Below, piece after piece: positions 1-35,430 of a DNA stretch of 64,000 nucleotides. Under the pieces are notes generated by a model. That model saw only the letters and a list, made by a program, of their open reading frames with translations. It was not told the DNA's origin and did not search any database. Positions within the stretch are counted from its first letter, which is position 1, and each line of letters begins with the position of its first letter. The DNA is from an uncultured Candidatus Saccharibacteria bacterium. GTDB lineage: Bacteria; Patescibacteriota; CAZHWT01. A program made the position numbers and the translations under genes. The stretch covers positions 72,439 to 136,438 of the forward strand of contig CAZKPX010000004.1 in the NCBI GenBank assembly GCA_964554805.1. The letters are read 5' to 3'.

Positions 1-328
1 CAACACAACCCAAAACAATACAGACAACACCGGTAATGGCTAGTGAGATATGAAATTTGCGATTGGTCCAAATTGACCAATACCAGAATTTATACCAGAC
101 AGCTTGGTTGGTGCGCTTAGAGCGGTTGATTAAAGCGGAGGGAGATTTGGCTTTGGGCGTTTTAGGCCTAGCCGAGGATTCAATAGTAATAGTTTTCATA
201 GACATAATTCGACAGGTTTTAGTATACCAAACGAGCAAGCTTATTTATATGGTTAGTGGTCTCGTGTCTCAATATCCGCCAGCCAAGCTGGCTGCATCGG
301 GGTAATGTAGTTCGCTTGATGAGGGGTT

Positions 329-884
329 GGAAAGGCAAAAATCAAAAGGCAAAGGGCAAAAATTAAAGTTAAAAATCAAAGCCCAAAGTTACAAGTAGTG
401 CCAAGTTAGCCAGTATTCGTCATTGTGAGGATCCGCCAGCTGGCGGAGACGTGGCAATCTAGGAGGATTGATGATTGCCTGTTGGCTTAAGAGTGTCATT
501 ATTGTTTGTCCTGGATTGCCGCTCCGCCGGTTGGCGGATCGCAATGACGTTGCAGGGGGGGGCGTCATTGCTTCTGTTCTGGATTGCCGCTCCGCTTGTT
601 GGGGGATGGCAATCTAGCTGTGACTGATATATTTTTCTCAAGTTACATTCGGCCAAAAGCCATTGTTTTTGTATGTCATTTTTTCACCTCAAATAAACAT
701 TTTTTACTAACCTTTGTGTCTATGGGTAGTATTGAATTTGCTTAGGGGCTCTCCCCGTCAAGCTAGGAGACCAGTATTTGAGGTGAAAGAAATGAATACA
801 AGGGTTTTTATTTAAATGCAGAAGACAGTTGCAGCTACTTTGTATTTTTAACTTTAATCTTTGCCTTTTGACTTTTGCCTTTCC
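329..884 (+). repeat. MITE-like composite repeat, copy a (long form). It has terminal inverted arms, internal palindromic GGATTGCCGCTCCGCC..GGCGG and CGTCATTG..CAATGACG modules, and a hairpin core at about 651-810.
   Basis: The left arm aaaggcaaaaatcaaaaggcaaagggcaaaaattaaagttaaaaatcaaag is inverted at the right end as ctttgtatttttaactttaatctttgccttttgacttttgcctttcc. The core ccaaaagccattgtttttgtatgtcattttttcac..ctaggagaccagtatttgaggtgaaagaaatgaataca is shared with the copies at 29.1, 32.5 and 39.9 kb. No ORF is present. Confidence 0.6.
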
Positions 885-964
885 AATACCCCATCAAGTT
901 GACTGGATTGCCGCTCTGCCAGCTGGCGGGTTAGGCTATCTGCTCTTTTTACCTCCCGCCTAGC

Positions 965-9160: not shown

Positions 9161-9436
9161 ATGAAAAATATTGTCTGGGATGAGGCCAAGAATGGTTGGC
9201 TAAAAGAACATCGGGGCATTTCGTTTGAAGATGTGGCTACCAGAATTGTTCAGGGCGATGTGTTGGATGTTATTACCCACCCGAATCAAAAAAGATACTT
9301 TAACCAGAGGCAGTTCATCTTGTACTTGCATGATTATGTTTACGCAGTACCTTTTGTTGAAGATGACAATAACCTATTTCTAAAAACAATAATTCCAAGT
9401 CGCAAGGCTAAGAAGAAATATCTCAGCAAGGGCTAG
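9161..9436 (+). CDS. brnT: Type II toxin BrnT (DUF497 family ribonuclease toxin).
   Basis: N-terminal IVWDEAKNGWLKEHRGISFEDV and C-terminal IIPSRKAKKKY match the BrnT family pattern (I.WDE.K...L...RGisFe..; ..iiSaRkA.k.E...Y). Confidence 0.7.
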   Translation: MKNIVWDEAKNGWLKEHRGISFEDVATRIVQGDVLDVITHPNQKRYFNQRQFILYLHDYVYAVPFVEDDNNLFLKTIIPSRKAKKKYLSKG

Positions 9437-9439
9437 TCT

Positions 9440-9766
9440 ATGAAAGATCCACAATTAACTCCCTATGAACAAGATTTACTTGATAGCTTTGAAAAAGGAG
9501 AGTGGGTATCTGTTCCTGATCTAGAAGAAGCCAAGAAGCGCTACGCGGCCTACGCAGCTTATGCTATGCAGAAGCGAGCCAAGACTAAGCCTATCAGTAT
9601 TCGTCTGTCCGAAGATGTGCTGGATGGATTGAAAGAGCAGGCTGGCCGGGAAGGTATCCCCTATCAGACGCTGATTAGCTCTATCTTGCATAAATACCTG
9701 GTCAAGGAAAGACAGGCTGAGTATGGTCAGGTGAACGACAAAGAAGAATCAGCGGACAAGGGATAG
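9440..9766 (+). CDS. brnA: BrnA antitoxin (ribbon-helix-helix / CopG-like).
   Basis: The IRLSEDVLDGLKEQAGREGIPYQTLISSILHKYL segment matches the BrnA_antitoxin signature. The gene starts 3 nt after brnT. Confidence 0.7.
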   Translation: MKDPQLTPYEQDLLDSFEKGEWVSVPDLEEAKKRYAAYAAYAMQKRAKTKPISIRLSEDVLDGLKEQAGREGIPYQTLISSILHKYLVKERQAEYGQVNDKEESADKG

Positions 9767-12217: not shown

Positions 12218-13294
12218 TTGCCGAAGCTCTTATCACACCATCCCACAATAATTCCCATGAAAGATCGTTTAACTCTGTGGCTGTTTTTTCTTAATTCTGT
12301 CCGATGCACCCTACTAGCTGGCTTTGGGCAGAAAGTTATTCTTCTTGGTGCGCCTTTCCATTGGAATCTGGGCGACCATGCTCAGACCTATTGCACTGTT
12401 GAGTGGATGAAGGATAATTACCCGAATAAGAAGCTGTTGGTTTACGATACCCGCTCTGCAATTAAGTTTAACTATTTGTTGATGCGAGCCTTGAAGTTTT
12501 TTGCGAATGATAAAGACATTTATATATTGCATAGTGGCTATCACTTGACTGACCTTTATCCACTTGAATTAGATCTGCAGCTAAGAACTATCTCAGATTT
12601 CCCGGACTCAAAAATAATTGTTATGCCCCAAACTATCAACTTGACCACAAAGGAGGTGGAGTCGAGGGTGATAGATTGCTTTAACGAGGCCAAGGACTTG
12701 ACGCTGTTGTGCCGGGACGAGACCTCGTATGAGCTAGCCAAGAAGTTTTTCAGCTGCAAACTACTCCTTTTCCCTGATATTGTTACCAGCATGATCGGAC
12801 AGGAAATGCCAAGAGCCACAACACGGACTTCAATCAATCTTTGCTTACGCAATGACAAAGAGTCGTTATATCGCCAATCTGGCGAGGATCTTCGCATGGT
12901 GAATGAATTATCCAAGATTGATAAAGTGGTGGTTACTGATACCGAGGCAGCTGAAAATCCTTTTTATGTCAGACTAAATCTGGCCAAAGTTTTACAGAAA
13001 TCCTGGTTTGATTTTAGCAGCTATAAAGTAACCATAACCGACCGTTATCATGGCACTATCTTCTCTTTGATTGCCGGCACCCCGGTTGTTGTTATTGCTT
13101 CAACAGACCATAAGTTAATCTCAGGAGTAAAATGGTTTCCCAAGAAGTACTTTAAGGATTATGTTTTTTATGCAAAAGATGCCGATGAGGCAATCTTGTT
13201 AGTCGGCAATATTTATCAAAATAACTACACAAACCGACTTGAACCATACTTTAAGAAGAACTACTATAGCTCTCTAAAAAGTAAGCTTATATAA
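12218..13294 (+). CDS. Polysaccharide pyruvyl-transferase-like protein (CsaB/WcaK-like).
   Basis: An N-terminal glycine-rich loop with NLGD (GAPFHWNLGDHAQ), as in the PS_pyruv_trans family. It sits upstream of an F420H2-DH-beta-like gene, a recurrent pairing. Confidence 0.45.
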   Translation: MPKLLSHHPTIIPMKDRLTLWLFFLNSVRCTLLAGFGQKVILLGAPFHWNLGDHAQTYCTVEWMKDNYPNKKLLVYDTRSAIKFNYLLMRALKFFANDKDIYILHSGYHLTDLYPLELDLQLRTISDFPDSKIIVMPQTINLTTKEVESRVIDCFNEAKDLTLLCRDETSYELAKKFFSCKLLLFPDIVTSMIGQEMPRATTRTSINLCLRNDKESLYRQSGEDLRMVNELSKIDKVVVTDTEAAENPFYVRLNLAKVLQKSWFDFSSYKVTITDRYHGTIFSLIAGTPVVVIASTDHKLISGVKWFPKKYFKDYVFYAKDADEAILLVGNIYQNNYTNRLEPYFKKNYYSSLKSKLI

Positions 13295-13311
13295 TACTTA
13301 AGGATAATTCT

Positions 13312-14730
13312 TTGAAAGACTACGCTGATATTTTTAAAACTGAAATTAGAGAAGGTCTCAGTGTGAATAGTGGTTCGTTCGCCGTAGTTGATGAAAACCT
13401 TCAAATGGTTTTGGATGAATATGGCCAATATAAGGCCGTTATTATTGATCCGAGTAAAACTGCTTCAACGCATGACAGAGAGCTTTCTTTAGTCAGTGCA
13501 ATGTCTGACATAAGCCCTGACGAGGATAGTATTGCAAGAGAGCTTTACTCTACTACGCCAAGGATCAAGCACTCTCAGGCAGTCGGCTATTATTTGGATT
13601 TGTACGCAGGCCACGTTACAGAAGGGAACTTCCGAGAAATAGCTAGTTCCGGAGGCTTTGCCACATGGACTTTGTGTAAGCTCCTCGAAGGAGGCTTAAT
13701 TGACGGTGTCATTCATGTTAAAGAGTCAAATGATGACGATGGCACTCTATTTAAGTATGCCATTTCTAGGACCAAAGAAGATATAATCAACGGATCTAAG
13801 TCAAGATACTATCCCGCAGAGTTTTCTAAGACTATTAAGGAAATTAAAAGGACCAAAGGTTCATACGCTATTGTTGGCATCCCCAGTTTTATCATGGAGA
13901 TTAGACTACTAGCCAAAGTTGATCCCGAGGTTAACCGTGCTATTAAATACACCTTAGGATTAATTTGTGGGCACCAGAAAAGCACTAAATATGCCGAGGC
14001 TCTTGCTTGGCAGCATGGTATTCAACCAGGAGACTTGCAAGCTATTGACTTCAGAAAGAAGACTAATGAGGCTGTTTCTTATAAGTATCTGACCGAGTTC
14101 ACTGGGCAAATTAATGGTAAAAAAACTACATTCACTAAGAAGCAAGATGATTTATTCGCTAGTGACTGGGCTCATGGCTTTTTTAAGACTGCTTTTTCGG
14201 ACTTTACCGACGATGCATTGAATGAGACTGCTGATCTGGCGCTTGGAGACGCCTGGCTGGATGAGTACTACTCTGATAGCGGAGGGAATAATGTATTAAT
14301 TGTTCGACATCCCGATATAGCGCAAATAATTAAAGATGGTATTAAGCATAGCCATATCAAAGTCAATGCAATATCTCCAGCAACCGTACTGCGTTCCCAG
14401 CAAGGGCTTATTCACCACACCCAAGATGAAATCTCATATCGGTTAAGTAAGATTAACAAATCTAAGGGCTGGAAGCCTATTAAGCCACGCCACTCCCCCA
14501 ATCGCATCCCATTTCTCCGCCGAAGAGTTCAGGATCTTAGGCGAGAAATGGCAGTGCAGAGCCATATAGCATACCAAGAGGCAGTTGCTTTAAACAATTG
14601 GCAATATTTTGAAAAGAAGATGTCTCCCTATATCAAGCAGTATAAATTTTGGTATAAAGTGATTGAATATAATAACCTTGGATTAGAAGGATTTGCTAAA
14701 AGAGTTCTCAAGAAATTACGAAAGAAATAA
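13312..14730 (+). CDS. Coenzyme-F420-hydrogenase/dehydrogenase-beta-subunit-like protein, a cysteine-less variant.
   Basis: An SSGG motif (ASSGGFATWTLCKLLEGGLIDGVIHV), as in FrhB_FdhB_N, and a C-terminal LALGDAW block. There are no CxxC iron-sulfur motifs. Confidence 0.45.
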   Translation: MKDYADIFKTEIREGLSVNSGSFAVVDENLQMVLDEYGQYKAVIIDPSKTASTHDRELSLVSAMSDISPDEDSIARELYSTTPRIKHSQAVGYYLDLYAGHVTEGNFREIASSGGFATWTLCKLLEGGLIDGVIHVKESNDDDGTLFKYAISRTKEDIINGSKSRYYPAEFSKTIKEIKRTKGSYAIVGIPSFIMEIRLLAKVDPEVNRAIKYTLGLICGHQKSTKYAEALAWQHGIQPGDLQAIDFRKKTNEAVSYKYLTEFTGQINGKKTTFTKKQDDLFASDWAHGFFKTAFSDFTDDALNETADLALGDAWLDEYYSDSGGNNVLIVRHPDIAQIIKDGIKHSHIKVNAISPATVLRSQQGLIHHTQDEISYRLSKINKSKGWKPIKPRHSPNRIPFLRRRVQDLRREMAVQSHIAYQEAVALNNWQYFEKKMSPYIKQYKFWYKVIEYNNLGLEGFAKRVLKKLRKK

Positions 14731-17044: not shown

Positions 17045-17307
17045 GGATTAATCCTTACCGGTATTTATTTTGTAATACTTCTACGCCTATATGATGAACC
17101 ATAGTCACTATATATTTCATCCGAGCCATTCTGGCTTGATCCAGGATTTTGCGATGGAGATATCTCTAGAAATTATACAGAAGGTGGTAGTCTAAATCTA
17201 CTGGACATTCGAAAGAAATATGCTAACCAATGGCGATGATTAGCTCAAAACTATTGTTGATTGCAGCGGCTAAAGGCTTGAATAGTCCTCAGACAATTGT
17301 AATGTGT

Positions 17308-18930
17308 TTACATGCCTGCGGCAGGCTGATGGTACAAGCGGTCAGTAATATCTACTAGATCGAATAGCTTTTTAGAATCTTTGAAGCCATAGACCTTTGT
17401 CTCCAGCGGCGACATGGGGATGTTGAAATATTGATCAAAAACGGTGCGGAAAGCATTAATGGATGACATATCATCTGATAGCCGAGCATAGTCCTGGTCG
17501 GGGAAATAGTAGGCGGTTAAGACGTTGGCCCGCTCGTGCAAGGCTTGATCTGAAGTGCTGACCCAGTTGTTACTCTTTTTGACTTGACTGTACTTTGAAG
17601 AACTGGCTCCCTCATCGGCTACCATCACTATAATGGCATTACCTTGGGTAGAGGCTTTTATGTACGAGATGATTTCCTGGGCTGTCCTGGTGGCACATTT
17701 AAGATGTTCGAGATACCCTTGATCATTACTCAGTCTGTCCAACTGAGTCGGGTCATATTGACAATCCTGGTTGAATATATAAGGCCCATGTGGCAATAGG
17801 ATGTGAGCCATAACGAACTTAGGGCTGGGCATATCTACGACAGTTTTGTAGGTGCTTAATTGATACTGGGTGTAGACCTTGTGGGCAATAAGGCTGTCGG
17901 CGGTGTTATCAGCAGTAAACAGGCTGACGATCGGCATGGCCATGGTGGCGGAAATTATTTCACGGACATAAGGATCCTTCAACCAGAACATTGGCGCATA
18001 CTGAAAAACCCGGTTATTACCTCCCTCTTGAGCTGTGGGCCAATACCAAGATGCTAATGAATAGTTTTTGTATCCTAGATCATGAAAGGTCTGTTGAGTA
18101 GCATTGTTTTTAAAAAGCGGAATAATATCAGACCCCTCAGTCGGCTGGCGGCCTTGCCAATCCTGGCTGTCATGATACTGCATATTAAGAGTGGCAGACA
18201 TGGAAAATGAGGTTTTAAGATAGTTCGACAGCGCATTTTCCGCTACAAAAAAGTTTTCGCTCCTTAACCAACTATAAAACTGACTGTTGTCGTATCCGTA
18301 GCTATCGAGCAATACATTGTTGGCAGCATAGCGATCAAACACCAGATAGTAGACATCTGGTTTGGATGCGGTGTAGTCGGGCAGATCGGTGGAGGCTAAG
18401 ACATTGCTGGCTGATGACAGGCTGGTATCTGCAACCTGCTCAACTCCCAGTTTGCCGCGCTCCGCCAAGCCTACCTGCCAAACTACCATGACTACTAATA
18501 TAATTGATACAACATTCATTATGGGTGTCAATATTCGACCAGAGTGAGAGGATCTTTTCCAATACCAGAATCCAGCCATCAGCAAAAGACTAACTACAGG
18601 AAAGACTGCTTTATCCGGGCCAATTATAAAATTGCCAACTCTGGCAAGCTCGTCAGGCAATGGATTTACCAAGGACCCATAGAGAGAAAACACAATAACA
18701 AATAAGCCCAGAGCTGCGGCAGCTTTGGGCCAGGACTTGTATATAAAATTGGAGATAAAGAAGAGCAGGCAGGTGACGATTATAACAAGTAGTAGTGGAA
18801 TATATACTACATCGAGGGTCAATTCCTGGACGTTGTGACTGTAGATAAAAATGACGGGATAAATGGCCAGCAATAACGGGTAAAATGGTTCACTACCGAC
18901 TTTGCTGAAAAATTGCCTAGCTTTATTCAT
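17308..18930 (-). CDS. Membrane-anchored alkaline-phosphatase-superfamily protein (LtaS/sulfatase/phosphotransferase-like), paralog 1.
   Basis: Five N-terminal TM helices, then a roughly 400-aa ectodomain. Conserved blocks are shared with the next gene (YYLVFDRYA, LLPHGPY, AYYFPDQ-Y, N-FRTVFDQYFN). Confidence 0.4.
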   Translation of the reverse strand: MNKARQFFSKVGSEPFYPLLLAIYPVIFIYSHNVQELTLDVVYIPLLLVIIVTCLLFFISNFIYKSWPKAAAALGLFVIVFSLYGSLVNPLPDELARVGNFIIGPDKAVFPVVSLLLMAGFWYWKRSSHSGRILTPIMNVVSIILVVMVVWQVGLAERGKLGVEQVADTSLSSASNVLASTDLPDYTASKPDVYYLVFDRYAANNVLLDSYGYDNSQFYSWLRSENFFVAENALSNYLKTSFSMSATLNMQYHDSQDWQGRQPTEGSDIIPLFKNNATQQTFHDLGYKNYSLASWYWPTAQEGGNNRVFQYAPMFWLKDPYVREIISATMAMPIVSLFTADNTADSLIAHKVYTQYQLSTYKTVVDMPSPKFVMAHILLPHGPYIFNQDCQYDPTQLDRLSNDQGYLEHLKCATRTAQEIISYIKASTQGNAIIVMVADEGASSSKYSQVKKSNNWVSTSDQALHERANVLTAYYFPDQDYARLSDDMSSINAFRTVFDQYFNIPMSPLETKVYGFKDSKKLFDLVDITDRLYHQPAAGM

Positions 18931-19001
18931 TGGCCTTATCTTTCAGGTATGCTACTAGAGTAACGTCTCAATTTAAAACGGTCAAGCCTCATAGATCAGC
19001 C

Positions 19002-20600
19002 CTATGGCGCGAGATAAAAATCGAACAAATGATCCTTGTCGGGCCAGAGGTAGGTTTGGTCTTCTAGGTTGGGGAGGTCGTAGTTGAAGTATTGGCGGAA
19101 GACGGTGCGGAAGGAGTTGACGGGGGTGATGGTGGGGTAGAGTTGGCTGTAGTTCTGGTCGGGGAAGTAGTAGGCGTTGAGGATTTGAGTGCGTTCTTGG
19201 ATAGCAGTGTCGGAGGCACCATCAAATTTCCAGTGGTGGCCGGTGGGGCTGATCATGGCTTCGGGGCCCTCATCGCTCTGGAGAATGATAATGGGTGGTT
19301 GGGTTGAGTTGGCTAGAATAGTGTCGATGGCCTGCATGGCCCTACTGTTGGCGCATTTGACCTGTTCGATGTAATTGGCCGGGCTGATTTCCCAGCGCTG
19401 CAGAGGTTGCTGGAGTAGATTGCAATCAGCATCATAGACGTAGGGGTCATGAGGCATAAGCAGGTGGGTCATGACAAATTTTTGCCCTGTTTGCTTGGTT
19501 GCTTGCAGGAGTTGCTGCTGGCCGAAGTCTGCCCAGCGATAATGCTGATCAAAGCCTAGCCCGAGTGGGTAATTAGTGGTTAATCCAGCTAATTCTGGAT
19601 AGTAGGATGTCTCGAGGAGTTGCCTGGTGAAGCTACTGGTGGTTATAAAATCTGACCAGTTGGCCATGATGTTGGTGTCGGCTACCTCGATGTTGCTGGC
19701 TAGCTCGTAATAATTGCCAACGTGGAAATAGGTGTAGCCAAGCGACTTGAAGATTTGGCCGGCCTTGTGATTTCTCATTAAGACTGAAGCGGTATCGGTG
19801 TCAGAGACACCGTCGGCCTGAGTATCGACCAGGCTTTGCAGATAATCTAGATTGAGGGTTGAGGAAAGTGAAAACAGGGTTTTGGGGTAGTTGGTGTTGG
19901 AATCAGTGGCTAGATAGAACTGCTTTTGAGCCAGATAATCGATTAGCTGTTGGTTATCATAGTCATAGTATTCAGCTTGAGTTTTGGGTGAGGCGTAACG
20001 ATCGAGGACGATGTAATAGATATCGGGTTGACTTGCAGCGACAAGCGATGAGTGATGAGCGACAGGGAGGACTTGGGTGGCCTGAAGTGCTTGCTGTCTG
20101 GCCTCGGAGCTGGCAAATAAGCCTGGAACAATTTGGATGAGAGGGCCGACAAGAAGAATAATGCCGACGAGGCTAATTAGTTTAATAAAACGTATCGATG
20201 GCCAGGTAGTCTGCCGACCGGCAGATTTCATAGCCATGACGACCAGCACTATTGCCACAAGTATATACAATAGCCAGACAGCGACTTTGGCTTGATCGGC
20301 TTCCAGCCACTGACCAAAAATCACAGTCAGGCTATTGAAGCTAAAGAATGTGACAACCAGCGTCAGGCTGATTAGAGCGGCAAAGGTTGGTTTTTTGGTT
20401 AAGAATGCCAAACCTATTTGGATAACTACGACGACAAAGGTTGTAAAAAGGAGCGGTTCAATCACCTGGTTTATAGTGGTGCCGTGAATATTGGTGGCGA
20501 ACAAGCTGAGAATTGCGAACCAGCTGAAGAGAATGGCTGGGGCTAGGCTTAGGAGCGACGAGCGACGAGCGACGAGCGACGAGGTGAATCGGTTGAGCAT
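19002..20600 (-). CDS. Membrane-anchored alkaline-phosphatase-superfamily protein, paralog 2. It carries a heptamer SSR in codons 7-17.
   Basis: Same architecture as 17308-18930 (IYYIVLDRYA, LLMPHDPY, AYYFPDQNY, NSFRTVFRQYFN). The N-terminal SSLVARRSSLL is encoded by (GAGCGAC)x4. Confidence 0.4.
   Translation of the reverse strand: MLNRFTSSLVARRSSLLSLAPAILFSWFAILSLFATNIHGTTINQVIEPLLFTTFVVVVIQIGLAFLTKKPTFAALISLTLVVTFFSFNSLTVIFGQWLEADQAKVAVWLLYILVAIVLVVMAMKSAGRQTTWPSIRFIKLISLVGIILLVGPLIQIVPGLFASSEARQQALQATQVLPVAHHSSLVAASQPDIYYIVLDRYASPKTQAEYYDYDNQQLIDYLAQKQFYLATDSNTNYPKTLFSLSSTLNLDYLQSLVDTQADGVSDTDTASVLMRNHKAGQIFKSLGYTYFHVGNYYELASNIEVADTNIMANWSDFITTSSFTRQLLETSYYPELAGLTTNYPLGLGFDQHYRWADFGQQQLLQATKQTGQKFVMTHLLMPHDPYVYDADCNLLQQPLQRWEISPANYIEQVKCANSRAMQAIDTILANSTQPPIIILQSDEGPEAMISPTGHHWKFDGASDTAIQERTQILNAYYFPDQNYSQLYPTITPVNSFRTVFRQYFNYDLPNLEDQTYLWPDKDHLFDFYLAP
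20553..20583 (+). repeat. Heptamer microsatellite (GAGCGAC)x4 inside the N-terminal coding region of the 19002-20600 gene.
   Basis: gagcgacgagcgacgagcgacgagcgacgag. A 7-nt unit in an ORF means a gain or loss of one unit shifts the frame. Confidence 0.8.
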
Positions 20601-20603
20601 AAC

Positions 20604-22046
20604 TTACTTCTTTTCTAGTAGGTATAGGATCCGGTGGCTATCTTTGATTGGGGTGGCTTTGGTAATTTTGAAATATTGACCAAAAGCAGCCTCAAATCCC
20701 TCCTTGGTGTAGTCAGTGAAAATATCCTGCCGGGTAGCTAACAGAATCTGGACTTGGGAATCCTGTTTGGGGATGAATTCAACGATGGCTCCCTTATGCG
20801 ACAACTGGTGGAACAACAGGGCAATCTTGGCTAAGGGGATGTTGAGAGGGATAGCCAGGTGATGGACGACCGCCAGTCCCATAATGGCATCGGCTTGAAT
20901 ACGATCCAGAATAGCCCGACGCTCGGTATTGTGCCAGCCAATGCCTGGGCTGGGGTTGGCAATGTCTGACACCAAAGGCAGGATACTGCCTTTGGTGGAG
21001 CGACTAGCGACGGGCGACGAGCGACGAGCTTCTGATTTGAGGTATTGGTAGAGGCTGTCGACTGCTAAGGGGTCGATGTCGAGGGCGATGGTTTGGATGC
21101 CTTGATCTGCCGCAACCATGCTAAATAAGCCGGTATTGGCACCGATGTCTGTGGCTGATTTTGCTTTGAGTTGCTTGAGATAGTCCCCCACTAATTGCTG
21201 CTTGTGTTGGAGGGCTTGGTCGACATAGTTGTTGTTATTGATGTAATAGCTGGCCCACTCGGTGTTTTGGCCTTTGGCTTTGAGCTTTTTGACTGCTGAC
21301 TCTAGACTATCCAACATGCCCAGCAATGATTGCAGACTGACTTGACCAACAGATGTAGATTGAGAAGCGGCTTGGAGATTTTTTGAGGCATCGGAAGCAT
21401 GACTGACTTGGTTCTTACCGTGAAGATGGATATGGATTAGCAGGCCGGGTCGGAGACGAGAAGCTGGGGGCAGGAGACGGGAGGCTAGGTCTAGAGGGAT
21501 GCCGTCAATATTCGTCTGGAGTAATTGCTGCAGGCGGAGATCGGTATGGGCCATTAAGGCTAGCGGGGCCAGGAAATGTTGGCAGAATTGTTTGTAGGCA
21601 ACCCAGGGCTTTGGCTGGTAGGCTTCAAAAGACAAGGTGTCAATTAAAACTGGCTGATTGGCCACAAATTGGATATTGTAAGCCGTTGCATCTTTGAGAC
21701 TCATGCCATGTTTGAGGGCTGTTTTTTGAAGATGAAGGGTTAGGAGCGCCGCATCTTGCAGCTGGCTAAATGACCATTCATACGGATAGGATATGACCGG
21801 AATATGCTCAGGTTTAATAATTTTATAGGCCTGCTGAAAGGGGTGGTTTGTTAACTTGACCTCTTGATGAGCTACCATAGCTTGCTGGTCAACAAGAGTC
21901 TGATATAGGCCGGAGCTGTGTAGCAGGTCATAGTTTTTCTGGTATGAATCAGAAACTGCCCGATAGATGGTGTCGTCTTGGTAAAAGACAGTGCCGCTGG
22001 GATCGCGGAAGGATGAAGATTCAAGCTTGGTAGTGTCTTTAGGCAT
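20604..22046 (-). CDS. Two-domain protein with a C-terminal class I SAM-dependent methyltransferase. It carries a GCGACGR heptamer tract in the coding sequence.
   Basis: DIGANTGLFSMVAADQG..ALDIDPLAVD is a SAM-binding fold. EARRSSPVASRSTKG is encoded by the gcgactagcgacgggcgacgagcgacgag tract at 21000-21028. Confidence 0.5.
   Translation of the reverse strand: MPKDTTKLESSSFRDPSGTVFYQDDTIYRAVSDSYQKNYDLLHSSGLYQTLVDQQAMVAHQEVKLTNHPFQQAYKIIKPEHIPVISYPYEWSFSQLQDAALLTLHLQKTALKHGMSLKDATAYNIQFVANQPVLIDTLSFEAYQPKPWVAYKQFCQHFLAPLALMAHTDLRLQQLLQTNIDGIPLDLASRLLPPASRLRPGLLIHIHLHGKNQVSHASDASKNLQAASQSTSVGQVSLQSLLGMLDSLESAVKKLKAKGQNTEWASYYINNNNYVDQALQHKQQLVGDYLKQLKAKSATDIGANTGLFSMVAADQGIQTIALDIDPLAVDSLYQYLKSEARRSSPVASRSTKGSILPLVSDIANPSPGIGWHNTERRAILDRIQADAIMGLAVVHHLAIPLNIPLAKIALLFHQLSHKGAIVEFIPKQDSQVQILLATRQDIFTDYTKEGFEAAFGQYFKITKATPIKDSHRILYLLEKK
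21000..21028 (+). repeat. Heptamer microsatellite (GCGACKR)x4 inside the methyltransferase-domain gene.
   Basis: gcgactagcgacgggcgacgagcgacgag. Confidence 0.7.
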
Positions 22047-22287
22047 CTTTTTTCTCCTGAGATTGGTCAGGAGTAGGCGAAGATTTACCTAGTAACTTAA
22101 GCACAAATGTCTTAACTTGCAGCCAGTATATCTTGAGGGCAAATAAGGCACCAAACAATCCGGCTAAGGCCATTTGAAAGAGATAGCTGCCGGTTCCTGG
22201 ATCGAGATAGGCATAAGCGGGTTGAGTGGCTGCGGACCAAATAGCGGCAAATGCTAGCATAATTGCTAATAGTGAGAAACGGTTCAT
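22039..22287 (-). CDS. Small membrane protein with a signal peptide and one TM helix.
   Basis: 82 aa with a hydrophobic N-terminus, AYAYLDPGTGSYLFQ, and a second hydrophobic helix. It overlaps the upstream gene by 8 nt. Confidence 0.3.
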   Translation of the reverse strand: MNRFSLLAIMLAFAAIWSAATQPAYAYLDPGTGSYLFQMALAGLFGALFALKIYWLQVKTFVLKLLGKSSPTPDQSQEKKDA

Positions 22288-22377
22288 GTAAAATAACTCC
22301 GATTGTGGGATTTGAGGTTGACGCTACCTAGTTTAGACTAGTTTTTAGGATAGGTCAAAATCTTTCTATGAAATACC

Positions 22378-26050: not shown

Positions 26051-26156
26051 CGAGACAGGAGACGCGGGACAGGAGGATTGTCAGTAATCTTTGATTTTTG
26101 ATTTTAATTTTTGCCTTTTGCCCTTTGCCTTTTTCCTTTTGCCCTTTGCCCTTTGC
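26051..26156 (+). repeat. Solo right arm of the MITE-like element (copy b): GGAGACAGGA tract plus TIR.
   Basis: cgagacaggagacgcgggacaggaggattgtcagtaatctttgatttttgattttaatttttgccttttgccctttgcc.. The last about 50 nt are read as the C-terminus of the Mur-ligase ORF (..[17 protein letters not shown]). Confidence 0.6.
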
Positions 26157-27411
26157 CGAGCGCTTTCTCTACAGCTGTTTGGTCTGACCAGGGGATTTCT
26201 TGGCCTTGGATGGCTAGGCTTTGTTCGTGGCCTTTGCCGGTAATTAATACTACGTCTCCCTTTTGAGCCATGGCGATGGCTTGGTTTATGGCTTGTTGTC
26301 GATCGTCGAGGCGCTGCCACTGTTTGCCCTGTACTCTACCCTGTTGAGTAAGACCATCGATGATCATTGATTGTATTGTATCCAAAGACTCAAAGCGGGG
26401 GTCCTCCATGGTGAGGATGGAGAAATCTGCCCATTGGCCGGACAGCTGACCGAAGGTTGAGCGCTTGGATTGATCACGTTGAGCTGCTGAGCCAAAAACA
26501 TGAATTAATGCGCCGTTGCCTGTGACTAATTTTTTAGCTTGAGGCAGTACTTGAGCTAAGGATTGTGGCGTATGGGCGAAGTCAATAATGATGGTGTATG
26601 GTGTAGTTTGGACTACCTGCCAGCGACCATCGACCGCTTTGACCGCTGCCAAGCCTTGTCTAATGGCTGACTCAGAAACTTCGAGGCATACCGCGATAGC
26701 GGTTGCTGCTAAGGCATTTGAAACATTGTATTCACCCGGTAAGAAGACTTGCAAGTCTTGGATCGACTTGGTTTTGCTTAATTTGGGAGAAATTTTACTA
26801 TTGAAAGTCGTTGATTGATCGGTTTGCTGCGTAATCGTGCCGAGTAAATCGGCTGGCTGAGACTGGCTAATAGTCAGGAGCGAGGGGTGGGTGGATATAA
26901 GCTGGGTCAATGGTGGACTGTCTATATTTATGATTGTGTGCTGCGACTGCTTGATAATCATGGCTTTGGCTTGAAGGTATTTATCCATAGTGCGGTGATA
27001 ATCGAGATGTTCCGGGCTCAGGTTGGTAATTAGTCCAACCCTAAAATTAAGACCAAAGGTTCGATATTGGTCCAGGCCATGTGAGGTAGTCTCAATAACG
27101 ACATGGCTGACACCTGCCTGTTTCATCTGATGCAACATAGCATATATTTCGGTTGGACCGGGTGTTGAGGTATGAAGGCCAGTTTGGAGATGTTGGCCGT
27201 TGATCTGCGCACCTAGGGTTGAGATGTGGCCGACTGTATGACCAGCCTGCTCCAATATGCTGGAGACAAGATGGGTGGTGGTGGTTTTGCCATCGGTGCC
27301 GGTAATACCAATCAAAATTAAATGTTTGTGTGGCTGGCGGAAGCGAATCATTGCTGCTGCGCTTAAGAGTATATTGATCAGTCGACGGGCAAGAATTCTG
27401 AGATGAATCAT
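26104..27411 (-). CDS. Mur-ligase-family protein (MurT/MurE-like central and C-terminal domains).
   Basis: P-loop GITGTDGKTTT and a Mur ligase middle-domain block, TSHGLDQYRTFGLNFRVGLITNLSPEHLDYHRTMDKYLQAKAMI. The N-terminus MIHLRILARRL resembles the MurT N-terminus. There is no Zn-ribbon. The C-terminal about 16 aa derive from the repeat. Confidence 0.55.
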   Translation of the reverse strand: MIHLRILARRLINILLSAAAMIRFRQPHKHLILIGITGTDGKTTTTHLVSSILEQAGHTVGHISTLGAQINGQHLQTGLHTSTPGPTEIYAMLHQMKQAGVSHVVIETTSHGLDQYRTFGLNFRVGLITNLSPEHLDYHRTMDKYLQAKAMIIKQSQHTIINIDSPPLTQLISTHPSLLTISQSQPADLLGTITQQTDQSTTFNSKISPKLSKTKSIQDLQVFLPGEYNVSNALAATAIAVCLEVSESAIRQGLAAVKAVDGRWQVVQTTPYTIIIDFAHTPQSLAQVLPQAKKLVTGNGALIHVFGSAAQRDQSKRSTFGQLSGQWADFSILTMEDPRFESLDTIQSMIIDGLTQQGRVQGKQWQRLDDRQQAINQAIAMAQKGDVVLITGKGHEQSLAIQGQEIPWSDQTAVEKALGKGQRAKGKRQRAKGKN

Positions 27412-28994: not shown

Positions 28995-29395
28995 GGGGAA
29001 GGGGGAGGCAAAAGGCAAAGGTCAAAAGGCAGAAATTAAAGTTAAAAATCAAAGGTTGCTTACGACTATGACATTGCGATCTGACGGCAAACGAAGTCAT
29101 AGCGGCAATCTTGTTTGATTATATTGCTGGCCCGGCAAAATGCATTCGGCCAAAAGCCACGTTTTTGTATGTCATTTTTTCACATCAAATAAACATGCCC
29201 TAGTATGGATAGATAATTTGGGTGAGGATATACTTATTTACTAGCTCTCCTTGGTCAGGCTAGGAGACCAGTATTTAATGTGAAAGAAATGAATACAGGG
29301 GGTTTATTAAATGCAGAAGGCAGAAGGCAGTCGCAGTTACTTTGTATTTTTGACTTTAATTTCTGCCTTTTGATTTTTGCCTTTTAACTTTAATT
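28995..29395 (+). repeat. MITE-like composite element, full copy c (TIR arms plus hairpin core at about 29148-29310).
   Basis: The left arm ggcaaaaggcaaaggtcaaaaggcagaaattaaagttaaaaatcaaag is inverted at the right as ctttgtatttttgactttaatttctgccttttgatttttgcc. The core ccaaaagccacgtttttgtatgtcattttttcacatcaaataaaca..ctaggagaccagtatttaatgtgaaagaaatgaataca is present. Confidence 0.65.
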
Positions 29396-31690: not shown

Positions 31691-31938
31691 GAAGGCAAAG
31701 GGCAAAGGGCAAAAGGTAAAAATTAAAGTAGAAAATCAAAAATTACATATGCGCCACTGTGAGCCCTGATTGGATCGGGATAAACTCCGTGCGGCAATCG
31801 GGGAGATATCCTAGATTGCCACGTCATTTCATTCCTCGCAATGACGAATACTGGCTAACTTAGCACTACAGCACTACTTGTAACTTTGGGTTTTAACTTT
31901 TAACTGTAATTTTGCCTTTTGCCTTTTGATTTTTGCCT
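31691..31938 (+). repeat. MITE-like element, short symmetric copy d (TIR arms plus a central palindromic module, no hairpin core).
   Basis: ggcaaagggcaaagggcaaaaggtaaaaattaaagtagaaaatcaaa ... tcctcgcaatgacgaatactggctaacttagcactacagcactacttgtaactttggg (the reverse complement of the 383-433 module of copy a) ... ttttgccttttgccttttgatttttgcc. Confidence 0.6.
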
Positions 31939-31942
31939 TGGT

Positions 31943-33512: not shown

Positions 33513-35180
33513 CTATCTTTTATCCCCACCAGCTTGGCTGGCGGCGGCGATAAAGTCGCGGAATAGCGGATGGGCTTGGGTGGGCCGGGACAGAAACTCG
33601 GGATGGAATTGGACTCCGATAAAGAAGGGGTGATTGGGTATTTCGACCATTTCAACAAGCTGACCATCTGGCGAGGTGCCGCTAATTATCATGCCGGCTT
33701 CTTCTAATGGCTGTCTGTAGACATTATTAAACTCATAGCGATGGCGATGGCGCTCATGAATAGCACTTTGTTGGTACGCTTGATACGCCAACGTGCTGGG
33801 CTTAACTTTGCAGGCCCAATCTCCCAAACGCATACTACCACCGTACTCCTGCTTGAGCAGCTTCTTTTGTTGGTCGGGCATGATGTGAACAATGGGATGC
33901 TTGGTTTTTGGGTCTACCTCGGTTGAATTGGCATTTTTGAGACCTGCTACATTTCTGGCAAACTCGATGGTGGCCATCTGCATGCCGTAGCATAACCCAA
34001 GATATGGCTTATTGTGCTGACGAGCGAATTTGACTGCAGCTATCATGCCTTCAATGCCCCGAGAACCGAAGCCTCCCGGCACGCAAATACCATCCATTTC
34101 GGCCAGTTTGTCAGTCCCTTCTTGTTCAATCTTTTCGGCATCCACCCAAAATAACTGGGGATCTAGGCCATGATGCCAGGCAGCATGCTTCAGGGCTTCG
34201 ATAACCGATACATAAACATCTTCCAGAACGAAATCTCCGGTAGCAAAGTATTTGCCGATTAGCCCGATTTTGACTGGCTTTTTGGCTTTGGCGATCGTTT
34301 TGTTGAGGGCAACCCAATCATCTAAGTTCTTGTCTTTGACCGGTAAGCCCATCTTTTCCAGTAACCGCTCGGCGACGTGCTGTTTGTCTAGAATTAGCGG
34401 CACCTGATAAATGCTATCGACATCGGGATTAGAAATGACATCTTCTGCCTGAACATTGGTGAAAAGTGAAATCTTCTCACGGCGGGTTTTATCGATACTG
34501 GCCGTTGATCGACCAACGATCATATCTGGCTGAATACCCATTGAATTGAGGGCGCGAACCGACTGCTGAATTGGCTTGGATTTCATTTCTCCCAAGGTAC
34601 CAGGAATGGGCAAATAGCCAAGATGAAGCTGGAAGACATCATGCGGATTCTTGAGCTTCATAATGCGCGAAGCTTCTAAAAATAACACATTCTCATAATC
34701 CCCTACTGTGCCACCCAGCTCGATGATAACGACATCGGCTTTATGACGACGGCCGGCCGCTTTGACTCTGTCGATAATTTCATTAGTAATGTGAGGGATG
34801 GGCTGGACCGTTATGCCTTGATATTCAAAGGCTCGCTCTTTTTTGAGAACAGTGTCGTAGAGCATGCCATTGGTGAGATAGTTGGCTCTGTCGAGGTCCA
34901 TGCCAAGGAAACGTTCGTAATTACCAAGATCTTGATCTGTCTCTAAGCCGTCTTGGGTAACAAAGACTTCGCCGTGCTCTTGGGGTCGCAAGGTGCCAGC
35001 GTCCATGTTGAAGTACATATCTATCTTCATGGGCGAGACTGTATAGCCCGAGGCTTTTAGTAATAAGCCGATTGAAGCCGAGGTTATTCCTTTGCCAATT
35101 CCTGAGATAACACCACCGGTAACGAATAAATACTTTGTTGGCATAGTTCCCCCTTTATAGTGACGAGCGACAAGCGACAA
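33513..35180 (-). CDS. pyrG: CTP synthase.
   Basis: KYLFVTGGVISGIGKGI at the N-terminus and a glutamine amidotransferase domain (GLCYGMQ, HPEF). 555 aa. Confidence 0.95.
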   Translation of the reverse strand: MSLVARHYKGGTMPTKYLFVTGGVISGIGKGITSASIGLLLKASGYTVSPMKIDMYFNMDAGTLRPQEHGEVFVTQDGLETDQDLGNYERFLGMDLDRANYLTNGMLYDTVLKKERAFEYQGITVQPIPHITNEIIDRVKAAGRRHKADVVIIELGGTVGDYENVLFLEASRIMKLKNPHDVFQLHLGYLPIPGTLGEMKSKPIQQSVRALNSMGIQPDMIVGRSTASIDKTRREKISLFTNVQAEDVISNPDVDSIYQVPLILDKQHVAERLLEKMGLPVKDKNLDDWVALNKTIAKAKKPVKIGLIGKYFATGDFVLEDVYVSVIEALKHAAWHHGLDPQLFWVDAEKIEQEGTDKLAEMDGICVPGGFGSRGIEGMIAAVKFARQHNKPYLGLCYGMQMATIEFARNVAGLKNANSTEVDPKTKHPIVHIMPDQQKKLLKQEYGGSMRLGDWACKVKPSTLAYQAYQQSAIHERHRHRYEFNNVYRQPLEEAGMIISGTSPDGQLVEMVEIPNHPFFIGVQFHPEFLSRPTQAHPLFRDFIAAASQAGGDKR

Positions 35181-35187: not shown

Positions 35188-35332
35188 CATATGCAATGAT
35201 AAGCACGAAATGATAGAGGCCCGTTCAGGCCCGAAAGCTAGATTATGTTTTTTTGAGGGGATTAAAGAGAAGTTAATAGAGTGCCCTTCTAAGAATACTG
35301 GCTTAACGGCTGCGCCGTCAAGCGCGACGGGC

Positions 35333-35430
35333 GACAAGCGACAGGCGACCAGCATTTGTTCAGTATTCAATTTGAACTGAATTTCCTCGTCGCACGTCGC
35401 TTGTCGCTTGTCACTATCGCTAAGCGATAA
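35333..35430. repeat. Inverted arrays of GCGACRR heptamers in the tsaC-pyrG intergenic leader, a large palindrome.
   Basis: gcgcgacgggcgacaagcgacaggcgacc .. ttcagtattcaatttgaactgaa .. gtcgcacgtcgcttgtcgcttgtc, followed by the palindrome ctatcgctaagcgatag. Confidence 0.7.

What the first reader, a model, noticed from the sequence alone, without database searches (positions are those of the whole stretch)
17308..22287. Tandem LtaS/sulfatase-like membrane paralogs, an SSR-bearing methyltransferase and a mini membrane protein form a repeat-regulated sub-operon.
The two 530-540-aa proteins share architecture and motifs but are diverged, indicating an old duplication. The second paralog and the adjacent methyltransferase each carry the frameshift-prone heptamer tract, whereas the first paralog does not. 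That is what one would expect if one modification (for example phosphoglycerol or phosphoethanolamine addition plus methylation) is switchable while a basal copy is constitutive.
Basis: inference. Interest (0 to 1): 0.6.

Follow-up and report, generated by a model that had tools for sequence, protein, structure and literature searches.

The report
Conserved glycan-decoration gene module with heptamer repeats
Four co-oriented genes in a surface-polysaccharide cluster of an uncultured CPR-like bacterium form an uncharacterised module found across bacteria and archaea (mini membrane protein, two-domain methyltransferase, membrane EptA/LtaS-like transferases); the heptamer tracts are real, but they belong to a genome-wide repeat class and are not shown to act as switches.

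Summary
On the minus strand lie an 82-aa membrane protein (22039-22287), a 480-aa methyltransferase (20604-22046) and two 532/540-aa paralogs (28% identical, E=5e-58).

Pfam does not recognise either paralog. An AlphaFold model (pLDDT 91.7) best matches EptA, EptC and MCR-1, and hhalign links the family to canonical PF00884 proteins (98.3%). The family conserves D200, T241, H379, H384 and D443-E444 and has no Cys/Ser-x-P-x-R motif. It is therefore a Thr-nucleophile transferase type, not a sulfatase.

The main new result is conservation of the module. The mini gene abuts the methyltransferase in 74 of 76 genomes. A membrane alkaline-phosphatase-superfamily gene is adjacent in 53 of 73. All the genomes are uncultured.

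(TCGTCGC)4 occupies codons 7-16 of paralog 2, and a change of one or two units truncates the protein. The methyltransferase tract is decayed and is an in-frame insertion in a loop. Period-7 repeats are enriched window-wide and are mostly intergenic. Switching is possible for paralog 2 but untested. "Repeat-regulated operon" is not supported.

The parts
22039..22287 (-). Mini membrane protein, 82 aa. It has a signal-peptide-like N-terminus ending A-Y-A, a near-invariant A-Y-L-D-P-G-T/S-G-S motif, one TM helix and a basic C-tail. It overlaps the MT start by 8 nt.
   Evidence: ORF. No Pfam or NCBIfam hit. Jackhmmer and alignment of 78 homologues show the conserved motif. It is adjacent to the MT gene in 74 of 76 evaluable genome loci. 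Signal-peptide cleavage is inferred from the AxA rule and was not tested.
20604..22046 (-). Two-domain cytoplasmic protein, 480 aa. The N-terminal domain (residues 1 to about 260, nt 21270-22046) has no detectable homologue of known function. The C-terminal domain (about 276-480) is a class I SAM-dependent methyltransferase.
   Evidence: Weak Pfam/NCBIfam methyltransferase hits cover residues 285-400 only. AF2 model: pLDDT 89.4. Foldseek PDB top hits are class I MTases (ChlM, NodS, the WbdD MT domain), aligning about 220-250 columns. The N-domain alone gives 0 Pfam and 0 PDB sequence hits. More than 8000 homologues at about 52% identity. The N-domain family has 3862 clusters at 50% identity, nearly all about 455-470 aa.
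20998..21029 (-). Degenerate heptamer tract (GCTCGTC GCTCGTC GCCCGTC GCTAGTC GCTC) inside the MT gene. It encodes ARRSSPVASRS at codons of about 340-352.
   Evidence: TRF: 4.6 copies, 84% match. It aligns as a 6-11 residue insertion in a length-variable loop relative to 16 homologues. pLDDT is about 60 in that block.
19002..20600 (-). Paralog 2, 532 aa: 5 TM helices plus an extracytoplasmic alkaline-phosphatase-superfamily domain. Putative catalytic set: D200, T241 (nucleophile), H379, H384, D443, E444. It is the orthologue of the copy that follows the MT gene in other genomes.
   Evidence: AF2 pLDDT 91.7, pTM 0.90, helices 20-36, 44-68, 71-96, 101-128 and 133-174. Foldseek PDB top hits: EptA 5fgn E=3e-9, EptC 6a82, MCR-1 9nww, then S1 sulfatases and PbgA. 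Invariant residues from alignment A1. hhalign against canonical PF00884 neighbours gives 98.3% probability, E=1.8e-14, with D, T, H..H and D-E/H columns aligned. Orthologues: L001 48%, L004 40%.
20553..20583 (-). Perfect heptamer tract (TCGTCGC)x4 within 31 nt of pure period 7, at codons 7-16 of paralog 2 (SSLVARRSSL). It is currently in frame (ON).
   Evidence: TRF: 4.4 copies, 100% match. In-silico changes of +/-1 or +/-2 units give stops at aa 14-49, while +/-3 keep the frame. No usable in-frame restart exists before codon 33. The N-terminal alignment shows the query is about 7-10 residues longer than most homologues here. The copy number is identical in two Logan assemblies.
17308..18930 (-). 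Paralog 1, 540 aa. It has the same architecture and the same D/T/H/H/D-E residues as paralog 2, carries no heptamer tract, and is deeply diverged (at most 33% to any homologue sampled).
   Evidence: BLASTP against paralog 2 shows FDRYA, KTSFS, HILLPHGPY and VADEG conserved. Best hits are 27-33%. No tandem repeat in the gene.
22330..22358 (-). Promoter-like site TTGACC-17-TAAACT in the 90-nt gap upstream of the mini gene. This is weak evidence.
   Evidence: Consensus scan. The number of such sites in the region is not above the shuffles, so it is only compatible with a sub-operon start.
17222..17244 (-). Terminator-like hairpin plus T-rich tail, 64 nt downstream of the paralog 1 stop codon. This is weak evidence.
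   Evidence: Consensus scan: 8-bp stem, 7-nt loop, tail ATATTTCTTT.

Best explanation
The region is a four-gene unit (mini membrane protein, two-domain methyltransferase, two membrane transferases). It sits inside a Wzx/Wzy-type surface-polysaccharide cluster of an uncultured CPR/Patescibacteria-like bacterium. It is one instance of a widespread, uncharacterised three-component module.

Shown:
- The two large proteins are 5-TM, N-in/C-out enzymes. Their outer domain has the alkaline-phosphatase-superfamily fold with a conserved Asp, a Thr nucleophile, two His and an Asp-Glu pair. It is most similar to the phosphoethanolamine transferases EptA, EptC and MCR-1 and to LtaS-type enzymes.
- The methyltransferase is soluble and fused to a conserved, enzyme-like N-domain of unknown fold class.
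- The mini protein is almost always encoded next to the methyltransferase.

Inferred:
- Each paralog takes a phospho-alcohol head group (phosphoglycerol or phosphoethanolamine type) from a membrane phospholipid onto Thr241. It then passes the group to the flipped glycan on the outer face. The two diverged copies would serve different acceptor positions or donors.
- The methyltransferase, held at the membrane by the mini protein, methylates the donor or the acceptor on the cytoplasmic face.

The heptamer tracts are local members of a genome-wide family of period-7 arrays that are otherwise intergenic. Two of them survive in coding DNA because they are in frame and lie in tolerant places: the cytoplasmic N-tail of paralog 2 and a surface loop of the methyltransferase. 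The paralog 2 tract could switch the gene off by slippage, but nothing yet shows that it does.
For: Gene order and overlaps.
Paralogy.
AP-superfamily fold and residues. Many homologues carry PF00884.
Active-site comparison for EptA (Thr280, Glu240, His383, His453, His465) and LtaS (Thr300, Glu255, Asp475, His476): PMC7576196.
MT domain.
Module conservation: the same order (mini, ~470-aa MT, sulfatase-like genes) occurs in L001, L003 and L087 inside glycan clusters. Across 80 GTDB genomes from many phyla, including a Nitrosopumilus archaeon, the mini gene is adjacent in 74 of 76. An A1-type gene lies directly downstream in 45 of 73, a canonical PF00884 membrane protein is adjacent in 8 more, and another lies within 6 kb in 9.
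Glycan-cluster context: two Wzx, GT2/GT4, Wzy, pyruvyl transferase, FkbM MT and an epimerase.
Heptamers as a genome-wide class. The other arrays lie upstream of the true starts of greA, prf, an ABC ATPase and pyrG.
MT tract as a loop insertion.
Against: No biochemical or glycan-composition data exist, so the donor, the acceptor and the methylation target are all inferred.
The metal-site His of the D-H pair is replaced by an invariant Glu. Chemistry may therefore differ from EptA and LtaS.
The mini+MT pair also occurs alone, outside glycan clusters (L086; 11 of 73 loci lack an AP-type neighbour). Its function is therefore not strictly tied to the transferase or to a polysaccharide.
The methyltransferase is cytoplasmic whereas the transferase domain is outside, so a direct sequential reaction on one substrate needs a lipid-linked intermediate.
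Foldseek TM-scores to solved structures are modest (0.34-0.57).
Two k=31 Logan contigs both break exactly at the paralog 2 tract. This could reflect length heterogeneity.
Confidence: 0.6

Rival explanations
1. The heptamer tracts are contingency loci. Slipped-strand mispairing switches paralog 2 (and the methyltransferase) ON and OFF, giving a phase-variable surface modification, while paralog 1 is constitutive.
For: A perfect (TCGTCGC)4 lies 18 nt after the start codon, and +/-1 or +/-2 units truncate the protein at aa 14-49 with no rescue start. It is the longest perfect heptamer run in the window. The gene encodes a surface-modifying enzyme, the classic target class. Heptanucleotide SSRs do mediate phase variation in Haemophilus, and 4 copies passes that study's screening threshold of 3 (PMC2651432). 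Two Logan unitigs break exactly at the pure-repeat 31-mer.
Against: Four copies is far below the proven heptamer switches, which have 13-38 copies, or 14 within an ORF.
The MT tract is decayed, with 2 substitutions in 32 nt, and is an in-frame loop insertion.
The same repeat class is mainly intergenic and genome-wide, and also occurs in the nearest relative.
All three assemblies show 4 copies.
The other end of Logan contig L084 also stops inside a heptamer array (26130). The breaks are therefore explained by repeated k-mers without any variation.
No phase variation is on record for this lineage (0 papers).
Confidence: 0.2
2. The module does not decorate the polysaccharide made by this cluster. 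Instead it remodels membrane lipids or modifies a protein, for example by head-group methylation and turnover. Its position in the glycan cluster is incidental.
For: The mini+MT pair occurs without glycan genes and without an AP-type neighbour in some genomes (L086; 11 of 73). The structural neighbours also include PbgA/YejM, a lipid-handling protein.
Against: In the window, L001, L003 and L087 the module is embedded between flippases, glycosyltransferases and a polymerase. Anaerolineaceae loci carry 5-6 tandem A1-like copies. Such paralog expansion is typical of enzymes with diversifying acceptor specificity.
Confidence: 0.15
3. The two large proteins are hydrolases (sulfatases or phosphatases), or catalytically inactive PbgA-like lipid-binding regulators, rather than transferases.
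For: S1 sulfatases are the best sequence-level PDB hits to the family profile, although weakly (E=0.045-0.7), and they fill most of the Foldseek list. The D-H pair is altered to D-E.
Against: The nucleophile position is a nearly invariant Thr in N-Y-P-K-T-x-x-S, with no C/S-x-P-x-R motif. The best structural matches are the 5-TM transferases EptA, EptC and MCR-1. The 5-TM anchor and full conservation of six active-site residues in both paralogs argue against loss of catalysis.
Confidence: 0.07

Closest known systems
Phosphoethanolamine transferases EptA, EptC and MCR-1 (membrane alkaline-phosphatase-superfamily enzymes)
   Same: They share the overall architecture of 5 N-terminal TM helices plus an outer catalytic domain, and they are the best Foldseek matches (5fgn E=3e-9, 6a82, 9nww). 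The acidic metal ligand lies about 40 residues before a Thr nucleophile (D200/T241 against Glu240/Thr280), followed by His residues and a late Asp.
   Different: Sequence identity is about 12%. The window proteins have no Pfam PF00884 hit. The His of the Asp-His pair is an invariant Glu (D443-E444). The proteins sit in a Wzx/Wzy glycan cluster of a CPR-like organism, not in an LPS lipid A/core context. They are always partnered with a mini protein and a two-domain methyltransferase, which EptA-type enzymes lack.
LtaS/LtaP lipoteichoic acid synthases and GacH-type glycerol-phosphate transferases
   Same: They also have 5 or more TM helices plus an extracellular AP-superfamily domain, a Thr nucleophile and a phospholipid head-group donor. 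GacH is likewise encoded inside a cell-wall polysaccharide cluster and decorates the glycan outside the membrane (bioRxiv 10.1101/337519, listed; LtaS residues from PMC7576196).
   Different: LtaS and GacH were not among the top 50 Foldseek hits. LtaS substrate-binding residues (Trp354, Arg356) were not checked. No methyltransferase or mini-protein partner is described for these enzymes (my own knowledge).
BcsG (pEtN-cellulose) and OpgB/OpgE-type head-group transferases
   Same: These are membrane-anchored AP-superfamily members that move phospholipid head groups onto an extracytoplasmic glycan (bioRxiv 10.64898/2026.09.23.753746, abstract).
   Different: They were not compared directly here, and their partner proteins and cluster context differ.
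WbdD, the bifunctional kinase-methyltransferase of E. coli O9a O-antigen
   Same: It is a two-domain cytoplasmic glycan-modifying enzyme with a class I SAM methyltransferase domain. That domain matches structurally (4azt, 4azs E=1e-5, about 217 columns) and weakly by sequence (E=0.2-0.3).
   Different: Only the MT domain matches. The domain order is reversed: here the unknown domain is N-terminal. The N-domain gave no Pfam, PDB or hhalign signal to kinases. A K-D-x4-N...D motif resemblance is only my reading of the sequence. There is no coiled-coil region. WbdD works in an ABC-transporter pathway, whereas this cluster has Wzx and Wzy.
SSR contingency loci of Haemophilus and Neisseria
   Same: A repeat unit not divisible by three lies at the 5' end of a surface-modification gene, and changes in unit number shift the frame (PMC2651432).
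   Different: There are only 4 units here, no observed length variation, and the repeat class is mostly intergenic and genome-wide.
Cyanobacterial STRR heptamer repeats (my own knowledge, not tested here)
   Same: Many different tandem heptamers are dispersed through intergenic DNA of one genome, and period 7 is specifically enriched.
   Different: The host is CPR-like, not a cyanobacterium. Here the A/T-rich arrays form the terminal inverted repeats of a MITE-like element.

Membership tests
Alkaline phosphatase superfamily (Pfam clan of PF00884 Sulfatase) | Alpha/beta core fold superimposable on solved members | tested here: met
   The AF2 model (pLDDT 91.7) gives 154 PDB matches with E<=0.001, all of the top 50 AP-superfamily members, probability 1.00. 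TM-scores are only 0.34-0.57.
Alkaline phosphatase superfamily (Pfam clan of PF00884 Sulfatase) | Significant match to the PF00884 profile | tested here: inconclusive
   Neither window paralog has a hit at E<=0.1. About half of the listed homologues carry precomputed PF00884 hits. hhalign of the family against canonical PF00884 proteins found at the same genomic position gives 98.3% probability, E=1.8e-14.
Alkaline phosphatase superfamily (Pfam clan of PF00884 Sulfatase) | Conserved metal ligands: an N-terminal Asp/Glu, the nucleophile, and a late Asp-His pair | tested here: inconclusive
   D200, T241 and D443 are conserved and align with D202, T242 and D460 of canonical neighbours. The His (H461) is replaced by an invariant Glu444.
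Formylglycine-dependent (S1) sulfatases | Cys/Ser-x-Pro-x-Arg motif at the nucleophile position | tested here: not met
   The nucleophile column is Thr within N-Y-P-K-T-[LF]-x-S in 90% or more of 40 sequences. No CxPxR or SxPxR motif is present.
EptA/MCR-1/LtaS-type membrane head-group transferases | N-terminal bundle of about 5 TM helices followed by an extracytoplasmic catalytic domain | tested here: met
   AF2 helices 20-36, 44-68, 71-96, 101-128 and 133-174 precede the catalytic domain from about residue 190. The full-length EptA and MCR-1 structures are the top and fourth hits over 570-594 columns.
EptA/MCR-1/LtaS-type membrane head-group transferases | Catalytic Thr nucleophile next to the metal site | tested here: met
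   T241 is nearly invariant and aligns with the Thr of canonical PF00884 neighbours. For reference, Thr280 in EptA and Thr300 in LtaS (PMC7576196). The position is inferred from alignment, not from a residue-level superposition.
EptA/MCR-1/LtaS-type membrane head-group transferases | Transfer of pEtN or glycerol phosphate from a phospholipid to an acceptor | not testable with these tools
   This needs an enzyme assay or glycan chemistry.
Class I SAM-dependent methyltransferases | Rossmann-like MT fold with a Gly-rich motif I and an acidic motif II | tested here: met
   Foldseek matches ChlM, NodS, UbiG and the WbdD MT domain at E of 3e-7 to 5e-5. D300-x-G302-x-N-x-G306 and D323 are invariant. 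Pfam hits are below threshold.
WbdD-like kinase-methyltransferases | A protein-kinase-like domain fused to the MT domain | tested here: inconclusive
SSR-mediated phase-variable (contingency) genes | Uninterrupted repeat with a unit not divisible by 3, inside the ORF, where unit changes abolish the product | tested here: met
   This holds for paralog 2 only. The MT tract is interrupted.
SSR-mediated phase-variable (contingency) genes | Observed repeat-number variation between cells, strains or reads | not testable with these tools
   The only material is three assemblies of the same population, all with 4 copies. No closer relative than 48-50% identity is known.

The most novel reading that the evidence does not exclude
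The mini protein, the unknown-domain/methyltransferase fusion and the D-T-H-H-D-E membrane transferase together form a new, pan-prokaryotic surface-decoration system found in bacteria and archaea, almost entirely in uncultured lineages. It would install a methylated phospho-head-group, or another so far undescribed substituent, using a lipid donor tailored on the cytoplasmic face. In this CPR-like lineage its transferase would additionally be under heptamer-slippage ON/OFF control. That would be the first contingency locus described in the Candidate Phyla Radiation.
Probability: 0.12. Interest if true: 0.75.

Novelty: new variant of a known kind. Interest (0 to 1): 0.45.

Why it matters
Membrane alkaline-phosphatase-superfamily transferases (EptA/MCR-1, LtaS, GacH, BcsG) set surface charge, antibiotic resistance and phage or host recognition. 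This work defines a diverged branch of them that Pfam largely misses and that has an Asp-Glu metal pair.

More importantly, that branch is genetically locked to two partners with no known function. One is an approximately 80-aa AYLDPGTGS membrane peptide. The other is a fusion of an unknown domain with a methyltransferase, whose N-domain family comprises 3862 clusters at 50% identity. The module is seen in Patescibacteria, Chloroflexota, Armatimonadota, Planctomycetota, Bacteroidota, Proteobacteria and archaea, and every one of the 80 best-matching genomes retrieved is a metagenome-assembled one. This gives a concrete three-gene target for working out how episymbiotic CPR cells and many other uncultured organisms decorate their envelopes.

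The heptamer question matters less. If slippage were shown, it would be the first evidence of contingency loci in CPR bacteria.

Tried and rejected
1. Pfam and NCBIfam on the two paralogs and the mini protein gave nothing usable. A single-sequence PDB search gave nothing. The family profile against PDB gave only weak sulfatase hits, E=0.045.
2. I first suspected a cyanobacterial origin because of the STRR-like heptamers. I rejected this: the closest named SecA relatives are Daviesbacteria, Woykebacteria and Berkelbacteria at 51-54%, and the closest MT locus is a Saccharibacteria-labelled MAG.
4. The Logan contig breaks at the tract were considered as evidence of length heterogeneity. I rejected them as evidence because the other end of the same contig also stops in a heptamer array, and both flanks show 4 copies.
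5. An exact look-up of paralog 2 in assemblies found nothing on record. No close orthologue (above 50% identity) exists for an SSR comparison.
6. Rfam and tRNA scans of the window found nothing. Promoter and terminator scans were not above shuffles.
7. I did not scan JGI metagenomes for tract alleles. Exact-protein look-ups show the species only in NCBI and Logan.

Full report
OBSERVATION. The minus strand of 17308-22287 carries four co-oriented ORFs.
- An 82-aa protein lies at 22039-22287.
- A 480-aa protein lies at 20604-22046 and overlaps the first by 8 nt.
- A 532-aa protein (paralog 2) lies at 19002-20600, starting 3 nt after the previous stop.
- A 540-aa protein (paralog 1) lies at 17308-18930, after a 71-nt gap.

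The two large proteins align over 519 columns at 28% identity, E=5e-58. They are real but old paralogs. TRF finds GAGCGAC x4.4 at 100% match at 20553-20583 and x4.6 at 84% match at 20998-21029. The 14-mer with up to 2 mismatches occurs 18 times in the window against 0.08 expected. The caveat is that the second tract is decayed.

WHAT THE LARGE PROTEINS ARE. Pfam, NCBIfam and a single-sequence PDB search give nothing for either paralog. About half of the 120 best homologues of paralog 2 carry precomputed PF00884 (Sulfatase) hits.

A 40-sequence alignment shows invariant or nearly invariant D200, R201, T241, H379, H384, D443, E444 and G445. The AlphaFold model is confident (pLDDT 91.7, pTM 0.90). 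It shows five long helices (20-36, 44-68, 71-96, 101-128, 133-174) followed by an alpha/beta domain.

Foldseek against the PDB puts full-length EptA (5fgn, E=3e-9) first, followed by EptC and MCR-1. S1 sulfatases and PbgA come next. TM-scores are modest, 0.34-0.57.

In genomes where this family is missing next to the methyltransferase, a canonical PF00884 membrane protein sits there instead. An hhalign of the two families gives 98.3% probability (E=1.8e-14). It lines up D200/D202, T241/T242, H379-H384/H395-H400 and D443-E444/D460-H461.

The nucleophile is therefore Thr, as in EptA (Thr280) and LtaS (Thr300) (PMC7576196). The sulfatase C/S-x-P-x-R motif is absent. The family is a diverged, Pfam-missed branch of the membrane head-group transferases, with Glu replacing the His of the Asp-His pair. 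Paralog 1 keeps all of these residues.

THE METHYLTRANSFERASE AND THE MINI PROTEIN. Residues of about 276-480 of the 480-aa protein are a class I SAM methyltransferase. The evidence is sub-threshold Pfam/NCBIfam hits, invariant motif I/II residues, and Foldseek hits to ChlM, NodS, UbiG and the WbdD MT domain.

Residues 1 to about 260 form a well-predicted domain with many invariant polar residues: R14, D15, R29, H60, E90, K118, D119, N124, D136, C155, H157, H205, H209. This domain has no Pfam or PDB sequence relative. Its fold class could not be determined because the domain-level structure libraries were unavailable. I treat it as an enzyme-like domain of unknown activity. The N-domain family has 3862 clusters at 50% identity (E<=1e-3), almost all in proteins of about 455-470 aa, so the fusion is the rule.

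The 82-aa protein has a signal-peptide-like N-terminus ending in A-x-A. This is followed directly by a near-invariant Y-L-D-P-G-T/S-G-S, one TM helix and a basic tail. Cleavage and topology are inferred.

A CONSERVED MODULE. The order mini, ~470-aa MT, sulfatase-like gene(s) recurs in metagenomic contigs L001, L003 and L087 inside Wzx/Wzy glycan clusters. A scan of 185,579 species genomes returned 398 relatives of the MT. The 80 best are all MAGs from many phyla: Patescibacteria, Chloroflexota, Armatimonadota, Planctomycetota, Bacteroidota, Proteobacteria and a Nitrosopumilus archaeon.

HMM searches of their ORFs give these counts:
- The mini gene is adjacent to the MT in 74 of 76 evaluable loci, usually overlapping it.
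- The A1-type transferase lies directly downstream in 45 of 73.
- A canonical PF00884 membrane protein is adjacent in 8 more.
- An AP-type gene lies within 6 kb in another 9.
- Eleven loci have none.

Tandem or multiple transferase copies are common (L001, L004, L005, L008, L066, L087; 5-6 copies in L045 and L052). Paralog 2 is the orthologue of the MT-adjacent copy (48% to L001, 40% to L004). Paralog 1 is at most 33% identical to anything sampled. The mini+MT pair can also stand alone outside glycan clusters (L086).

CONTEXT AND HOST. Around the unit lie two Wzx-type flippases, GT2 and GT4 glycosyltransferases, a Wzy-like polymerase, a pyruvyl transferase with an FrhB-like partner, an FkbM methyltransferase and an epimerase. 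The closest named SecA relatives are CPR lineages at 51-54%. The closest MT locus is a Saccharibacteria-labelled MAG. A promoter-like site upstream of the mini gene and a terminator-like hairpin after paralog 1 are compatible with a four-gene transcript, but neither is statistically notable.

THE HEPTAMERS. Period 7 is the only enriched repeat period in the window: 12 perfect runs of at least 2.7 copies against 0 in shuffles, while periods 5, 6 and 8-11 are near nil. Most arrays are intergenic. The A/T-rich ones (AAAGGCA/TTTGCCY) form the inverted termini of a repeated MITE-like element. The GC-rich GTCGCYY ones occur upstream of pyrG, greA and the epimerase gene. The nearest relative, L004, also has five perfect heptamer arrays in 21 kb, two of them just upstream of its mini gene.

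The MT tract encodes ARRSSPVASRS. It aligns as a 6-11 residue insertion in a length-variable loop with pLDDT of about 60, and it is interrupted by two substitutions. It is a fixed relic, not a plausible switch.

The paralog 2 tract is different. (TCGTCGC)4 is perfect and is the longest such run in the window. It spans codons 7-16. Changes of +/-1 or +/-2 units give stops at aa 14-49, and no in-frame restart exists before codon 33, which would remove conserved TM1. It is therefore formally an ON/OFF-capable SSR, currently ON.

Against its use as a switch:
- Proven heptanucleotide switches have 13-38 units (PMC2651432).
- The NCBI contig and two Logan assemblies all show 4 units and are 100% identical elsewhere.
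- The Logan contig breaks at the tract are matched by a break in another heptamer array at the contig's other end. They therefore reflect repeated k-mers rather than demonstrated heterogeneity.

MECHANISM (shown versus inferred). Shown: gene organisation, paralogy, the AP-superfamily fold with a Thr nucleophile and a 5-TM anchor, the class I MT domain, strong cross-phylum linkage of the three components, and the frame consequences of repeat changes.

Inferred:
- The paralogs move a phospho-alcohol head group from a phospholipid, via phospho-Thr241, to the flipped glycan outside the membrane.
- The two copies differ in donor or acceptor.
- The MT, tethered by the mini protein, methylates the donor lipid or the lipid-linked acceptor on the cytoplasmic side.
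- The heptamers are by-products of a genome-wide repeat process, tolerated where they are in frame.

VERDICT. The regulatory reading is unsupported for the methyltransferase and untested for paralog 2. The most valuable outcome is the recognition of a widespread, uncharacterised three-gene module. I rate it a new variant of a known kind, with interest 0.45.

Noticed in passing
window 294-919, 29006-29395, 31692-31939, 39837-40237: A repeated MITE-like intergenic element. Its terminal inverted repeats are built from A/T-rich heptamer arrays (AAAGGCA/AAAGGGC ... TTTGCCY) plus AAATTAAAGTTAAAAATCAAA. Two copies share an internal inverted repeat (TTGTATGTCATTTTTTCAC.TCAAATA / TATTT.A.GTGAAAGAAATGAATACAA).
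   Followed up: partly
window 35157-35178, 35326-35352, 35386-35417: GC-rich GTCGCYY heptamer arrays lie in inverted orientation (up to 95% complementary, 33-217 nt apart) just upstream of pyrG. The NCBIfam match for pyrG begins at ORF residue 15. This could be a structured leader or a second MITE-like element.
   Followed up: partly
whole window; L004 1433-9644; L017 1-55; L049: Period-7 tandem repeats are specifically enriched in this genome (12 perfect runs against 0 expected). They also occur in a Saccharibacteria-labelled MAG and a Chthonomonadaceae MAG, but are rare in the other ~1.3 Mb of loci sampled. The phenomenon resembles STRR repeats but lies outside cyanobacteria.
   Followed up: partly
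window 43528-44056 (inside the 2022-aa ORF 41438-47506): A perfect 255-bp tandem duplication (2.1 copies, 100% match) lies in a very large ORF. It sits in the one G+C-rich (54%), strongly GC- and AT-skewed stretch of the window, and several 15-18-bp repeats lie nearby at 42493-43210.
   Followed up: no
window 9161-9766: A BrnT/BrnA-type toxin-antitoxin pair is embedded on the opposite strand inside the glycosyltransferase cluster (Pfam labels from the Logan locus L085).
   Followed up: no
window 26104-27411 and 26109-26157: The murE ORF matches its NCBIfam profile only from position 70 onward, so its N-terminus is short or the gene is interrupted upstream. Its last codons run into a (TTTTGCC)7 array. 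Logan contig L084 also ends inside this array, at 26130.
   Followed up: no
L045 1157-12917; L052 1791-12916: Anaerolineaceae MAGs carry five to six tandem, distantly related A1-like transferase genes around the mini-MT pair. This is a striking paralog expansion.
   Followed up: no
L004-L083 (record titles): All 80 best genome loci encoding the methyltransferase family come from metagenome-assembled genomes, with no cultured isolate among them. This probably explains why the module is unstudied.
   Followed up: no
window 12218-14730: A polysaccharide pyruvyl transferase is followed by an FrhB/FdhB-like (F420 hydrogenase beta-type) protein in a CPR-like genome. This suggests a pyruvylated glycan.
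   Followed up: no
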